The notes under the pieces: model-generated
The model's input: the letters and a program-made list of their open reading frames with translations, nothing else
Database searches by the model: none
Told to the model about the DNA's origin: nothing
Translations under genes and position numbers: made by a program
Part shown: one piece after another, positions 51,910 to 64,000 of the stretch
Numbering within the stretch: the first letter of the stretch is position 1
Layout of the letters: each line of letters starts with the position of its first letter
NCBI GenBank assembly: GCA_963789265.1
Contig: CAWBKB010000007.1
Coordinates: forward strand, 352,001-416,000
Direction of reading: 5' to 3'
DNA from: an uncultured delta proteobacterium
Lineage (GTDB): Bacteria; Desulfobacterota; Desulfomonilia; Desulfomonilales; Desulfomonilaceae
DNA: 64,000 bases

Positions 51910-52730
51910 GTTGTTATTGCGAGAAGCAAAGCTACCGAACAATCGGCGCCTTCATGCAGCAATCGTCATTCCGGGGCACGCGGTCCCGCGTTCGCGGGAC
52001 AGTAGGACCGGCATCTTGCCGGTCGTCAGTCAGACCGGCCTCAGCTTGCGTAGGATGCGGTGAGCCTCGCCAACGCGAGGGAACCGCATCGGTCGCGGCT
52101 CGGTCATTGAGGGACTCCTCGGCGAGATTTTTCGCGACCGATGCGGTTCATCCCCCGTGCCGCGGGATTCACCACATCCTACACACTCCTCGCAATGACA
52201 GGAAAACGGCATTTGTCCCGCGAAATTAGACTCACTGATACGGATTTTTTTCCCTTGACATAGCGCGAGGTCCTGTTCAAAATAGAGACTAATAGTTTCC
52301 CATAGAGAACACAGGCAGATGCCAACGTGCCTAAAACCGCTCTCAAACAGAGTCCAATGACGAAACAAGAGTTCGCAATCGTGAAACTTTTGCCGTTCAG
52401 AAACCCAGTTGGTAGAACGGCCCAGGCAAATGACAGGCAGGATGCCTGTCCCACCATCACATCCGTCCACTTTACCGGTGGGACAAGCATCCTGCCTGTC
52501 ATTGCGAGCGCAGCGAAGCAATCTTTCTTCTCGTTCCCGGGCTCTGCCTGGGAACGCCTGCCTTCGAGGCTCTGCCTCACCTATGATAATGAAATAAAGC
52601 CAGTTTGCGGGCAGAACCCGCGAGATCTGGATTCCCAGGCGGAGCTTGGGAACCAGAAACCCTAAATCTTCTTGCTGGGACAGGCTTACAGCCTGTCTAT
52701 TAGGAATGACAGGCAAGATGCCTGTCCCAC
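51910..52730. repeat. Mosaic cluster of several palindromic repeat families
   Basis: GTAGGACCGGC.., GTAGGATGCGG.., GTGGGACAGGC.., GTCATTGCGAG.. and CTCGTTCCC..GGGAAC units. Confidence 0.8.
52255..52310 (+). promoter_or_regulatory. hcr promoter with two putative IclR operators
   Basis: TTGACA-N17-CAAAAT; GTTCAAAATAGAGACT and GTTTCCCATAGAGAAC. Confidence 0.6.
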
Positions 52731-56521: not shown

Positions 56522-56531
56522 AAGTTTTCCG

Positions 56532-56820
56532 GTGGGACAGGCTTCCAGCCTGTCTATTGTGAATGACAGGCAGGATGCCTGTCCTATTATCAATTCTTCA
56601 CCCTCTTACCAGTAGGACAGGCTTCCAGCCTGTCACTTTCTTGGTGGGACAGGCTTCCAGCCTGTCTATTGGGAATGACAGGCAGGATGCCTGTCCTACT
56701 ATCAATTCTTCACCCTCTTACCAGTAGGACAGGCTTCCAGCCTGTCACTTTCTTGGTGCGACAGGCTTCCAGCCTGTCTATTGGGAATGACGGGCAGGAT
56801 GCCTGTCCTACTATCAATTC
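56532..56820. repeat. BIME-like tandem REP array (112-bp unit, about 2.6 copies)
   Basis: Units start at 56532, 56644, 56756; REPs GTRGGACAGGCTTCCAGCCTGTC and GACAGGCAGGATGCCTGTCCTAC. Confidence 0.92.
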
Positions 56821-56821
56821 C

Positions 56822-57271
56822 TCACATCCGACGTCCTGCCCAGCGATAATCCTCAATCTCCGGCCACCGCTTCACAGGATTTCCCAGAATGTATTCTGTC
56901 TTCTGAAGCAACTCCGCTTCATCCCTCACAATGCGGTCAAAGTACTCGTCCTGCCAGACTGGCACGGCCCTTGTCCGAGTTTTTCTCAACGCGTTGGCGG
57001 TAAAAGATTTCCACGAATGGACGATCTGTTGCAAAGAATGCGTGTCAAAGGGGGATACGAGTACATGCACATGATCATCCATGACAACATAGGCAAGGAG
57101 CTCGTAGCGCTTGCCATCGAAATGTCTTATCGCGTCGGCCACCAAGGTCCTTTCCTCGGGATCGAGAACGGGTTGGGCCTTTCCAAGACGCCAGGTGACA
57201 AAGTAAAAGGAGCTCTCCATTCGCCAATGCGGGAGTTTCCGCCGATATGTGATTAAACGGGGTGTTTTCAA
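56822..57271 (-). CDS. REP-associated tyrosine transposase (RAYT/TnpA-REP, Y1 HUH)
   Basis: YRRKLPHW, YFVTW, VVMDDHVH (HUH), WKSFTA, WQ..YFD..VR, YI..NP; REPs on both sides. Confidence 0.9.
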   Translation of the reverse strand: MKTPRLITYRRKLPHWRMESSFYFVTWRLGKAQPVLDPEERTLVADAIRHFDGKRYELLAYVVMDDHVHVLVSPFDTHSLQQIVHSWKSFTANALRKTRTRAVPVWQDEYFDRIVRDEAELLQKTEYILGNPVKRWPEIEDYRWAGRRM

Positions 57272-57298
57272 AGGCGAGACCTCTTTGCTCTGACCAAT

Positions 57299-57364
57299 GA
57301 CAGGCAGGATGCCTGTCCCACTATCAATTCCCACCTTACCAGTAGGACGGGCTTCCAGCCTGTC
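57299..57364. repeat. REP pair upstream of RAYT
   Basis: Same family as 56532-56820. Confidence 0.88.
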
Positions 57365-57432
57365 ATTTTCCTGGTTGCCAGGCAACGCCACCACACCAAA
57401 GGGGTGATTCATTTCCCGCGCCGCGGAATTCA

Positions 57433-57687
57433 TCATGCCTCACGCGAACCCCTCTCTTGTCGTTTCTCGGTAGTTCCATCGCATCTCTCGCGCGTTGCCA
57501 ATGACGGCACTAGAATTCTCACATTCGGATCGTGAATGCCTTTCAAATCAAGCATGTCTTGTGCGCCAACTCTCAATGACTCTAGAAGTTCCTCTTGCGT
57601 CCGTTCCTGGGCGTTCACGCCAGGCAGATCTGTCAACCAGCCGATCCACCATCCCTCGGCTTTCTCTATTACTGCGTTATATTCCAT
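57433..57687 (-). CDS. hicB: HicB-family antitoxin
   Basis: MEYNAVIEKAEGWWIGW..DLPGVNAQ..T.EEL...L. Confidence 0.82.
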   Translation of the reverse strand: MEYNAVIEKAEGWWIGWLTDLPGVNAQERTQEELLESLRVGAQDMLDLKGIHDPNVRILVPSLATRERCDGTTEKRQERGSREA

Positions 57688-57689
57688 GA

Positions 57690-57973
57690 TTACCTCACGA
57701 AGGGGATATCCAAGTCCTTGCAGATCCTTCCGTAAGTATTCTCGAAAGCGATCGCGGATTGCCCAGACAGAAGGGCAAGACATTGTCATTGCGAGGAGCA
57801 ACGCGACGAAGCAATCTCAGTTTTGGCCGTGTGGAGATTGCTTCGCTTCGCTCGCAATGACAACGGACAGAAAACTCCCCGCCCACCAGAATGGATGCGC
57901 ATGTTTCTTGCCCTCTCCGAACAAGTTCCGCTCCATGCCGCTCCAAGTGCTTTATAAGTGCATGTCGTTTCAT
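57690..57973 (-). pseudogene. hicA: HicA-family toxin disrupted by repeat DNA
   Basis: N-terminus MKRHALIKHLERHGAELVR-EGKKH and C-terminus RICKDLDIPFVR* flank a GTCATTGCGAG hairpin at 57785-57861. Confidence 0.75.
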
Positions 57974-61262: not shown

Positions 61263-61304
61263 ATGAGCCGGCTTCAGCGGCCCCGTATATGACCAGGGGG
61301 GCGT

Positions 61305-61389
61305 GTCATTGCGAGGAGCGGTGCGACGAAGCAATCTCCTGTACCGCTTCCGTTACCTTGTGAGATTGCTTCGCTGCGCTCGCAATCAC
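61305..61389. repeat. GTCATTGCGAG..GCAATCTC inverted doublet downstream of GIY-YIG gene 1
   Basis: Arms at 61305-61338 and 61362-61389. Confidence 0.9.
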
Positions 61390-61400
61390 AGGGTGATGTC

Positions 61401-61688
61401 CTACAAGTATTCATATAGATCCCGCCATTCGGGATTCATTGCTTCGATGAGGTCGATTTTTTTCTGGCGAGAGCCTGCCTTTATCTGTTTCTCACGGGCA
61501 ATGGCTGCGTGCACGTCATCTGTGACCTCATAGAACACCAGCTTGGAAACGTTGTACCGGTGAGTAAAACCCGGTACCAGCTTCTCTCGGTGCTGCCAGA
61601 CGCGTCTCCTGAGGTCGCGGGACACCCCCATGTACAGAACCGTGTTACTGCGATTGGTGAGGATGTTGACGTGGTATTGTCGATACAC
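61401..61688 (-). CDS. Small stand-alone GIY-YIG nuclease (Ssn-like) 1
   Basis: VLYMGV..DL.RRV.QH......GFT.RY.V.KLV.YE......AI.REKQIK...R..K..LI...NP.W.DL. Confidence 0.9.
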   Translation of the reverse strand: MYRQYHVNILTNRSNTVLYMGVSRDLRRRVWQHREKLVPGFTHRYNVSKLVFYEVTDDVHAAIAREKQIKAGSRQKKIDLIEAMNPEWRDLYEYL

Positions 61689-61703
61689 GTTCTATAACTT
61701 TCC

Positions 61704-61829
61704 GAGATTGCTTCGCTTCGCTCGCAATGACAGGTGCCGATAATGTCATTGCGAGGAGTGAAACGACGAAGCAATCTCCTGTACCGATGTCACAACTTTC
61801 CGAGATTGCTTCGCTTCGCTCGCAATGAC
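61704..61829. repeat. Three GTCATTGCGAG-family arms upstream of GIY-YIG gene 1
   Basis: Arms at 61704-61731, 61745-61778, 61802-61829. Confidence 0.9.
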
Positions 61830-61937
61830 AGTAGGAGCAACCGGTGCGGAGGCCTGTCCTACCGCCGCGATGGTAGCGCCGGCGTCCCTGCCGGCGGATG
61901 ATGGGATGTGGCGGCACCCGAACGGCGGCCTTTGCCC

Positions 61938-62750: not shown

Positions 62751-62901
62751 GGACCTTCTCGCTATTGAATATCAAGATAATACTTTTGTAGTTTGAAATT
62801 ATCAAGTTCATCACAATATGTCAAGTTGTTGTTCAGGATTCGCTGTCCGTTTGCCCCAATGCATGTCCCCCGCCCCGAGGACAACGCGACCAGGCCGAGT
62901 C

Positions 62902-63053
62902 GTCATTCTCGCGCACGCGGGAATCCAGGCATTGAATCTCAGTGGGACCGGCATCTTGCCGGTCGTCGTCATTCCCGCGTACGCGGGAATCCAGACTGGA
63001 CCCCGGATCTAGTCCGGGGTGACGACGTCATCCTCGCGCACTCGAGAATCCAG
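62902..63053 (+). repeat. dRS3-like repeats downstream of GIY-YIG gene 2
   Basis: GTCATTCYCGCGYACGCGGGAATCCAG-type units at 62902, 62968 and a more degenerate one at 63027, plus an inverted CTGGACCCCGG..CCGGGGTGAC unit. Confidence 0.9.
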
Positions 63054-63054
63054 G

Positions 63055-63348
63055 CTATAACGTAATGACTTCGTACAGGTCTTTCCAATCCGGGTTCCTT
63101 TGCTCTATCAGATCCAACTTCCAAGCCCTTCTCCATTTCTTGATCTGTTTTTCCCTTGCTATTGCACTTTCGGCGGTATCATGAACTTCAAAATAGACGA
63201 GCCTGTTCACACCATACTTCATTGTAAAGCCTTCTACTAACTTTTGCTTGTGCTGCCAGGTCCTCTGAATCAAATTGGATGTCACCCCTGTATACAAGGT
63301 TCCGTTACGTTGACTCGCCAAGATGTAGACATGAAATTGCTTACTCAC
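63055..63348 (-). CDS. Small stand-alone GIY-YIG nuclease (SsnA-like) 2
   Basis: HVYILASQRNGTLYTGVTSNL..R..QHK.....GFT.KY.V..LVYFE.....AI.REKQIKKW.R.WK..LIE..NP.W.DL; GAGG RBS before GTG. Confidence 0.93.
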   Translation of the reverse strand: MSKQFHVYILASQRNGTLYTGVTSNLIQRTWQHKQKLVEGFTMKYGVNRLVYFEVHDTAESAIAREKQIKKWRRAWKLDLIEQRNPDWKDLYEVITL

Positions 63349-63390
63349 TTCAACCTCATCTGGACCCCGGATCAGGTCCGGGGTGACGGC

Positions 63391-63749
63391 GTCATTCTCG
63401 CGTACGCGAGAATCCAGACGAGGAGGGATCGTGCTAGAACCCAGGGGTCCTGAGTCGTCATTCTCGCGCACGCGGGAATCCAGACTCTGAATGACAGGCA
63501 GGATGCCTATCCCACTAAAGTCGTCATTCCCGCGGCACGCGGGAATCCAGACGATCTTGGTTGCCTCATCGGTACGCAGATCACTCGTCGTCATTCCCGC
63601 GCACGCGGGAATCCAGAACCGGCTGCCTCGATCATACTGACCGTGAAACCGGAGGTCGTCATTCCCGCGCACGCGGGAATCCAGGCCTAATGCTGTTACA
63701 CCTGGCACGACGTGAGGGAGTTGTCATTCTCGCGCACGCGGGAATCCAC
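63391..63749 (+). repeat. Regular repeat-spacer array (6 repeats, 5 unique spacers), CRISPR-like/NIME-like
   Basis: Repeats start at 63391, 63457, 63523, 63590, 63658, 63723; spacers 39, 39, 39, 41, 38 nt. Confidence 0.9.
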
Positions 63750-63885
63750 GCTGGACCCCGGATCTAGTCCGGGGTGACGGCATCATTACCTCGCACTCGG
63801 GAATCCATTGTGGGGGCACCTCTCCCGGGTGCCCGCAAGACGGCAGACACTATCCCGCGTCGCGCGGGACTGCCCCTACTCGTCC

Positions 63886-64000
63886 CTACTCCGCCCCTTC
63901 TTTCAACTCGTCAAACTTGAATTGAACGGTCACCACTCCATCAGTAACCGACTTGTGCAAGACATAAGGTAGCTTATCGAAAGTCTTGAGCATCGGCTTG
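63886..64000 (-). CDS. 3' end of an unidentified gene
   Basis: Open frame ...KPMLKTFDKLPYVLHKSVTDGVVTVQFKFDELKEGAE* running off the window. Confidence 0.4.
   Translation of the reverse strand, partial: KPMLKTFDKLPYVLHKSVTDGVVTVQFKFDELKEGAE

What the first reader, a model, noticed from the sequence alone, without database searches (positions are those of the whole stretch)
63484..63522. Array spacers contain the genome's own RAYT-type REPs without any increase in length
Seen: spacer 63484-63522 contains AATGACAGGCAGGATGCCTATCCCACTA, one mismatch from the REP plus flanks at 57296-57323. Spacer 62929-62967 contains CAGTGGGACCGGCATCTTGCCGGTCGTC, matching 52000-52027 at 27/28. Both spacers are 39 nt, like REP-free ones. 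Inference: a REP inserting into an existing spacer would lengthen it by about 23 nt, so fixed-length self-DNA pieces appear to have been captured, linking the GIY-YIG array to the rival RAYT/REP system.
Basis: partly seen in the sequence, partly recalled or inferred. Interest (0 to 1): 0.75.

Follow-up and report, generated by a model that had tools for sequence, protein, structure and literature searches.

The report
Hairpin repeats turned into CRISPR-like arrays
Small hairpin repeats beside a single-strand DNA nuclease gene have collected equal-sized DNA snippets, one copied exactly from the cell's own chromosome, most likely because the cell's CRISPR spacer-inserting enzyme mistakes these hairpins for CRISPR repeats.

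Summary
Observation confirmed and extended. The array flanks an Ssn-family GIY-YIG nuclease gene, and its repeat is the known NTS/SRM hairpin. Redrawn, the units are 32-bp repeats with 33-35-bp spacers, the geometry of this genome's own type I-C CRISPR array. Both REP-bearing spacers are 34 bp, like REP-free ones. A third spacer (63620-63654) is an exact 35/35 copy of a single-copy chromosomal site. Genome-wide, 12 of 24 close SRM pairs have period 65-68 (7 loci); none has the +23 period that REP insertion predicts. In 11 other genomes SRM pairs have period 60-62, mostly a 28-bp duplication plus a 33-bp insert, the type I-E geometry. Best reading (0.6): off-target integration by host Cas1-Cas2 into SRM hairpins. 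Against it: no REP spacer has a full-length donor, the exact donor lacks a TTC PAM, and 7 of the 11 genomes show no I-E cas1, including one with 19 units and no cas1 at all. A Cas-independent capture machine remains possible (0.2). The link to RAYT/REP looks passive, not antagonistic. The scan has noted off-target CRISPR insertions on other DNA, once carrying REP hairpins, but no note seen had SRM hairpins as the target.

The parts
62899..62930 (+). Repeat R1 (32 bp: SRM/NTS hairpin core plus 3 bases on each side)
62931..62964 (+). Spacer S1, 34 bp; RAYT-type REP core at 62942-62964 ends at the spacer's last base
   Evidence: confirmed by a short-read contig
62965..62996 (+). Repeat R2
62996..63055 (.). 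Inverted SRM-like hairpin plus degenerate repeat R3: the ordinary Ssn end module
   Evidence: (49 genomic hits at E<0.01)
63055..63348 (-). ssn gene, 97-aa single-domain GIY-YIG nuclease (Y8, Y19, E66)
   Evidence: PF01541 E 6e-17; 64% identical to a Neisseria homologue
63360..63387 (.). Inverted SRM-like hairpin upstream of the gene
63388..63751 (+). Six head-to-tail repeats: R4 63388-63419, R5 63454-63485, R6 63520-63552, R7 63587-63619, R8 63655-63686, R9 63720-63751 (R6 and R7 each carry a probable 1-base assembly insertion)
63420..63453 (+). Spacer S2, 34 bp, no genomic match (best 10 mismatches)
63486..63519 (+). Spacer S3, 34 bp; RAYT-type REP core on the minus strand at 63494-63516
63553..63586 (+). 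Spacer S4, 34 bp, no genomic match
63620..63654 (+). Spacer S5, 35 bp, exact copy of single-copy site G000:C5:828811-828845 (minus strand)
63687..63719 (+). Spacer S6, 33 bp, no genomic match
63751..63810 (.). Inverted hairpin plus degenerate terminal repeat: outer end module
56822..57436 (-). Open frame holding the RAYT gene, amid clusters of the REP family seen in S1 and S3
   Evidence: PF01797; NF047646 87.2 bits over cut-off 80; REP copies at 56525-57370

Best explanation
The locus is an Ssn nuclease cassette whose SRM hairpins have been used as off-target landing sites by the host's CRISPR integrase. Here the type I-C Cas4-Cas1-Cas2 cuts on either side of a 32-bp stretch centred on the hairpin, inserts a 33-35-bp fragment and duplicates the 32 bp; repeated rounds built a CRISPR-like array. 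In other lineages a type I-E-like integrase does the same with a 28-bp duplication and a 33-bp insert. Self-derived fragments survive, probably because these repeats give no working guide RNA. REP DNA is over-represented, perhaps because nicked hairpins supply free ends. Shown: geometry, one exact self donor, REP excess, constant length, recurrence across three phyla-level groups. Inferred: the enzyme, the source of the REP fragments, and the lack of interference.
For: (1) The genome has one cas1, type I-C, with cas2, cas4 and a 27-repeat array of 32-bp repeats and spacers of 33 (8), 34 (11), 35 (5), 36 (2) bp; the 13 SRM spacers are 33 (3), 34 (7), 35 (3), not distinguishable (p = 0.79). (2) The eight array repeats are 16-19 of 32 identical to that repeat in zero-offset register; 4.6e-5 of genomic 32-mers reach 19. 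(3) The duplicated unit is symmetric about the hairpin centre and folds end to end, as a two-fold symmetric integrase would leave it. (4) 12 of 24 same-strand SRM pairs of period 36-130 fall at 65-68, in 7 loci. (5) S5 is an exact 35-bp self copy (chance about 1e-13) from a site syntenic in 4 of 5 congeners, while 0 of 26 spacers of the real CRISPR array match self. (6) In 11 other genomes 39 pair rows have period 61 (32), 60 (6) or 62 (1); 29 of the 32 at 61 show a 28-bp duplication in one of two mirror registers (permutation mean 12.2 of 39, maximum 23 in 5000). E. coli I-E adds a 33-bp spacer and a 28-bp repeat (PMC7054753, PMC10011333, passages). (7) Outside G544, 6 of 7 forward-register inserts start with G, the PAM-derived base of I-E. 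(8) I-E cas1 in 4 of 11 such genomes against 7 of 76 controls (p = 0.03), I-C cas1 in 6 of 11 against 10 of 67 (p = 0.008) (kin not independent). (9) Among 160 Ssn homologue loci plus 5 viral loci, close SRM pairs have periods 38-126, are largely tandem duplications, and I saw none with three or more repeats and unique fixed-length spacers, so this is not a routine product of Ssn.
Against: No TTC PAM on either side of the S5 donor. None of five REP-family spacers has a full-length donor (3-6 mismatches at best), whereas 200 of 278 genomic REP 34-mers have a neighbour within 3 mismatches. G544 has 19 unit rows at 60-61 and no cas1 found (completeness not given), and only 1 of its 13 forward inserts starts with G. 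G187, G284, G012, G567 and G681 have I-C but no detected I-E cas1, yet show period 60-61, not 66. G001, same genus with an identical I-C repeat, gave no unit (59 candidates scored per genome), and period 65-68 was seen in none of the other 12 family genomes with I-C cas1. 532 other genomic sites match the I-C repeat as well as the SRMs do, only 8 of them SRM-like. Five of the seven extra units have diverged partner repeats (14-26 of 32). Six other-genome spacers tested found no self donor (40 candidates scored per genome).
Confidence: 0.6

Rival explanations
1. A Cas-independent capture process tied to the Ssn/SRM system: Ssn nicks single-stranded DNA just 5' of the hairpin, and a host or unknown enzyme joins a 33-35-nt fragment there and duplicates the hairpin.
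For: SsnA cuts about 3 nt upstream of the NTS (PMC11893778, results section), within a base or so of the 5' edge of the 32-bp unit here (my reading). Insert length is 33-35 in both period classes. G544 and G024 have units and no cas1 found. Six of the 12 units in this genome sit in the array around its one intact ssn gene of this subtype.
Against: Units are rare beside ssn genes elsewhere; only 1 of 45 unit-bearing or candidate loci checked had an ssn gene in the fetched flank. The two geometries equal two known Cas1-Cas2 geometries, and mirror registers fit a symmetric double-strand integrase better than a one-strand nick. No ligase or integrase activity is reported for Ssn in the sections read.
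Confidence: 0.2
2. The REP-bearing spacers are DNA that was already in place: two SRM copies came to flank a resident REP in these repeat-rich intergenic mosaics, or a REP replaced part of an older spacer.
For: No full-length donor for any REP spacer. REP directly abutting an SRM is a common compound here: 48 of 469 REP copies have an SRM within 5 bases, and the S1 REP ends at the repeat edge. The three extra REP-bearing units have diverged partner repeats.
Against: Cannot explain the exact distant copy S5, the constant 33-35 length with REP in either orientation and at different offsets, or the absence of a +23 class; REPs lie in only 3 of 356 flanks of solitary SRMs in the spacer register.
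Confidence: 0.12
3. The array is a working guide locus: repeats are processed and the spacers direct Ssn or Cascade against REP/RAYT or other DNA.
For: CRISPR-like layout, REP excess among spacers, intact I-C effector genes in the genome.
Against: SsnA does not bind RNA (PMC11893778). The hairpin is central in this repeat but 5'-shifted in the I-C repeat, so processing would give a different handle (inference). No promoter-like site reads into the array. A guide to a 469-copy repeat would be lethal if it cut. No phage or plasmid match for S2-S6.
Confidence: 0.08

Closest known systems
Ssn nucleases with NTS/SRM hairpins (Chenal et al. 2025, PMC11893778; read: abstract, introduction, first results parts, discussion, term search)
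   Same: Small single-domain GIY-YIG gene flanked on both sides by oriented hairpins; the copies at 63589-63616 and 63657-63684 fit the published 28-nt NTS consensus at every position (compared by eye).
   Different: The paper has no occurrence of 'spacer' and describes no fixed-period arrays or captured DNA. Here repeats are head to tail at a fixed period with unique inserts.
Off-target (non-canonical) spacer integration by Cas1-Cas2 / neo-CRISPR loci (PMC6698737 passages; Nivala et al. 2018 seen only as cited there; Shmakov et al. 2020 title only, content recalled)
   Same: Repeat-length duplication of a repeat-like site around a spacer-length insert, self-derived inserts tolerated.
   Different: Natural, recurrent use of one dispersed mobile hairpin family as target, up to five consecutive spacers, two geometries in different hosts, strong excess of REP DNA.
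CGTC-tagged REPs, dRS3 and BIME/NIME mosaics (Di Nocera et al. 2013, PMC3733652; abstract and passages)
   Same: Same repeat class; compound REP-SRM-hairpin modules and tandem duplications are common here and elsewhere.
   Different: That paper calls head-to-tail CGTC dimers negligible; the units here are head to tail with a fixed insert length.
Canonical type I-C CRISPR array
   Same: 32-bp repeat, 33-36-bp unique spacers, 16-19 of 32 repeat identity.
   Different: No adjacent cas genes, no PAM at the one donor, self and REP spacers retained, different hairpin position.

Membership tests
Ssn (cd10448) / SRM | Single-domain GIY-YIG protein of about 95 aa with the SsnA catalytic spacing (Y6, Y17, E64) | tested here: met
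   97 aa, PF01541; Y8, Y19, E66; 64% to a Neisseria homologue. The CDD model itself was not available.
Ssn (cd10448) / SRM | NTS/SRM hairpins on both sides of the gene | tested here: met
   consensus read and compared by eye
Ssn (cd10448) / SRM | Site-specific cleavage of single-stranded DNA upstream of the hairpin | not testable with these tools
   needs an assay
Off-target Cas1-Cas2 integration (type I-C) | Duplication equal to the host repeat length and insert equal to the host spacer length | tested here: met
   32 bp and 33-35 bp against 32 bp and 33-36 bp
Off-target Cas1-Cas2 integration (type I-C) | Target resembles the host repeat in register | tested here: met
   16-19 of 32, but 532 other sites score 19 or more
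Off-target Cas1-Cas2 integration (type I-C) | Donor carries the subtype's PAM (TTC; 5'-GAA-3' on the other strand in PMC6519985 passages) | tested here: not met
   the single exact donor has none on either side; n = 1
Off-target Cas1-Cas2 integration | Unit geometry follows the Cas1 subtype present in each host | tested here: inconclusive
   fits G000, G226, G265, G468, G070; does not fit G187, G284, G012, G567, G681 (I-C, period 60-61) or G544, G024 (no cas1 found)
Functional CRISPR array | Leader/promoter, processed guides, foreign targets | tested here: inconclusive
   no promoter-like site into the array, no Rfam CRISPR match (the real I-C array also stayed under the gathering score), no phage or plasmid match; expression untested
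RAYT/REP (REPtron) | The sequences in S1 and S3 belong to the REP family flanking a RAYT gene | tested here: met
   NF047646 over cut-off; REP clusters on both sides of the gene. That this RAYT acts on them is inferred from position.

The most novel reading that the evidence does not exclude
Ssn-associated hairpins support a Cas-independent, fixed-length DNA capture process that builds CRISPR-like repeat-spacer arrays across several bacterial groups and preferentially records REP DNA: a second natural route to spacer arrays, and a candidate source of CRISPR repeats themselves.
Probability: 0.2. Interest if true: 0.92.

Novelty: new variant of a known kind. Interest (0 to 1): 0.72.

Why it matters
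How new CRISPR arrays and repeats originate is an open question, and evidence for birth by off-target integration comes largely from enzyme and over-expression experiments. A widespread mobile hairpin family that repeatedly becomes multi-spacer arrays in nature, with geometry that seems to follow the integrase type, makes that idea testable with defined substrates. Such arrays would also be an unselected record of what the integrase captures, here an excess of REP DNA that real arrays lose to autoimmunity. If the integrase is not Cas1-Cas2, an undescribed spacer-acquisition activity exists. Practically, these units will be miscalled as orphan CRISPR arrays.

Tried and rejected
REP insertion into a shorter spacer: no +23 class; the period-43 rows are another REP family, not SRM pairs. 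Orthologous empty sites: G001, G004, G006 lack the cassette and have unrelated intergenic DNA; the same at two extra units in 5 and 1 relatives; inconclusive. A related strain in two wastewater runs joins 62922 to 63894, keeping the start of R1 and lacking the rest; insertion and deletion cannot be told apart. Spacers S2-S6 against phages and plasmids: only repeat matches; one G544 array against plasmids likewise. Spacers were not searched in IMG/VR. Self-donor searches for six spacers of other genomes: none. No RNA holder listed, so no evidence on expression. Rfam: nothing at gathering score. Model searches of 151 gamma- and 151 alphaproteobacterial-class genomes found matches in 3 and 2 (28 candidates scored each), so units are uncommon. 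A Photobacterium replicon stretch showed only 200-bp tandem modules. No survey of all GTDB genomes for these arrays was obtained, so prevalence is known from samples only. My first idea that period 61 is intrinsic to Ssn was dropped; the idea that I-C alone explains everything was dropped. Papers not held: Nivala 2018, Shmakov 2020. Supplements of the Ssn paper were not read and may list SRM spacing. No structure or complex prediction was run.

Full report
Observation. The two stretches and both 27/28 matches are real. They lie in a repeat array that wraps a 97-aa GIY-YIG gene at 63055-63348. The protein keeps the Y, Y, E spacing of SsnA and is 64% identical to a Neisseria homologue. The REP in the spacers is the family clustered round the RAYT gene near 56.8-57.4 kb; two core queries find 469 copies, 0.18% of the genome.

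Anatomy. The duplicated unit reaches 3 bases beyond the 26-bp SRM core on each side, 32 bp, symmetric about the hairpin. Short-read contigs from two soil runs reproduce most of the array and each drop one base in a 33-bp repeat (63534, 63617; possibly the window's own sample). The six spacers are 34, 34, 34, 34, 35 and 33 bp. S1 and S3 hold a REP, in opposite orientations and at different offsets. S5 is an exact 35/35 match to one other site, C5:828811-828845, at a gene junction syntenic in 4 of 5 congeners; part of the donor lies in a stretch the relatives lack. S2, S4 and S6 match nothing in the genome, in 50,697 phage records or in 72,556 plasmid records.

From 194 well-preserved SRMs, 24 same-strand pairs with period 36-130 pass a partner cut-off of 17 of 26; 12 fall at 65-68, in 7 loci; the rest are two 59s inside this cassette and ten at 73-125, mostly fixed compound repeats. 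A thirteenth unit was found by a model biased to this period. Of the 13 spacers, five carry REP-family DNA (34, 34, 34, 33, 35 bp), two resemble a second dispersed family, one is the exact self copy, five are unmatched. By one fixed cut-off 3 of 12 hold a whole REP core, against 3 of 356 flanks of solitary SRMs (p = 0.0005; 2 of 8 well-preserved units, p = 0.004). An earlier figure of 4 of 12 counted one spacer below the cut-off and is not used. So REP-bearing spacers are not longer, and REPs are strongly over-represented. Against simple copying from the present chromosome: the best full-length matches have 3-6 mismatches, mostly in the flanks, while 200 of 278 genomic REP 34-mers have a neighbour within 3. 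Five of the seven extra units have partner repeats only 14-26 of 32 identical and are weak evidence.

Which machine. The genome encodes one Cas1, type I-C, with cas2, cas4 and an array of 27 repeats of 32 bp with 33-36-bp spacers. The SRM spacer lengths match that distribution (p = 0.79), and the array repeats are 16-19 of 32 identical to the CRISPR repeat with no offset. None of 26 true CRISPR spacers matches self. The one exact donor has no TTC PAM.

Other genomes. Around 160 close Ssn homologues and 5 viral loci, 82 close pairs in 30 loci have periods 38-126 and are largely tandem duplications; I saw no fixed-period array with unique spacers. Samples of 401 phylum genomes (10 with a match), 70 family genomes (13), 151 phylum genomes (5) and two sets of 151 proteobacterial genomes (3 and 2) gave 11 other genomes with pairs at period 60-62 and no well-preserved unique-insert pair at 65-68; only the loci returned were inspected, and tandem-duplication rows (G340, G424, one period-67 row in G544 and others) were left out of the count. 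The 39 rows are 32 at 61, 6 at 60, 1 at 62; two G544 rows are near-duplicates and the two G012 inserts are related. 29 of the 32 at 61 have two further matching bases on one side, giving a 28-bp duplication in one of two mirror registers and a 33-bp insert (permutation mean 12.2, maximum 23 of 39). That is the type I-E unit (PMC7054753 and PMC10011333, passages). Two I-E repeats read from these genomes match the SRM core at 14-17 of 26 in just those two registers. Six of 7 forward inserts outside G544 start with G; in G544 1 of 13 does. I-E cas1 was found in 4 of 11 (7 of 76 controls), I-C cas1 in 6 of 11 (10 of 67 other family genomes), either in 9 of 11, none in G544 and G024. The I-E search is not fully sensitive: 1 of 14 control genomes passed its cut-off although E. 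coli is among them. G000 itself has a perfect 29-bp duplication round a 32-bp insert at a non-SRM site, a hint that an I-E system once acted in a lineage that now shows none; I looked for such sites after reading note e1-6649029.

Mechanism. Most likely (0.6) the host Cas1-Cas2 treats the SRM, a hairpin of repeat-like size and sequence, as a CRISPR repeat. Integration duplicates a repeat-length stretch and adds a spacer-length fragment; further rounds give an array. Self fragments persist if the repeat yields no functional guide (inferred from the different hairpin position). Why REPs are enriched and lack donors is unexplained: candidates are fragments freed by RAYT or Ssn nicking, DNA from kin strains, or donor sites lost in these fast-changing intergenic mosaics. 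The rival, a Cas-independent Ssn-linked capture (0.2), rests on G544 and on the I-C genomes with period 61. In-place mosaics (0.12) and a working guide locus (0.08) fit less.

Novelty. Ssn/SRM and off-target spacer integration are each known (PMC11893778; PMC6698737 passages; type I-C details from PMC6519985 passages). CGTC-class repeats were reported as rarely head to tail (PMC3733652, abstract and passages). Eight literature searches (listings only, except the papers named; PMC8616872 and PMC12477760 passages added nothing) showed no paper on SRM/dRS3 hairpins as spacer-acquiring arrays; Nivala 2018 and Shmakov 2020 were not available and could hold related cases. Verdict: real, a new variant of a known kind, with an open chance of a new capture system.

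Noticed in passing
G000:C1:861365-861454: Perfect 29-bp duplication round a 32-bp insert (period 61, type I-E geometry) near a gene start, in a genome with no detected I-E cas1.
   Followed up: partly
window 61299-61831: A second GIY-YIG gene (61401-61688, minus) flanked by a different hairpin family; two paralogues elsewhere (C7:55858; C5:170678 with a stop), and a stop-broken paralogue of the array's gene at C1:1097867.
   Followed up: partly
G544 loci L307-L328: A 1.5-Mb gammaproteobacterial-class genome with 19 unique-insert SRM unit rows at period 60-61, several as two-spacer mini-arrays, and no cas1 found.
   Followed up: partly
G000:C1:326990-329133: The large-subunit gene of the type I-C operon reads as two frames (262 and 481 aa): a real split or an assembly frameshift.
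   Followed up: no
G000:C1:1048189 and C1:318533: Two solitary copies of the type I-C repeat (28 and 27 of 32) outside the array.
   Followed up: no
G000:C1:2075275: 31-bp imperfect duplication round a 29-bp REP-bearing insert at a non-SRM hairpin (period 60).
   Followed up: no
G000:C5:828811 region (L007): The S5 donor overlaps a roughly 95-bp stretch absent from four congeners, at the start of a gene near comEC-like and prepilin-peptidase-like genes (names from my reading of the translations).
   Followed up: partly
L351 (NZ_CP073579.1:170000-219000): Long tandem arrays of 200-bp modules, each with two opposed SRMs, in Photobacterium sp. GJ3.
   Followed up: no
window 57536-57720: Short HicB-like frame beside the RAYT gene, next to an apparently broken HicA-like frame (recalled resemblance; no Pfam hit for the piece tested).
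   Followed up: no
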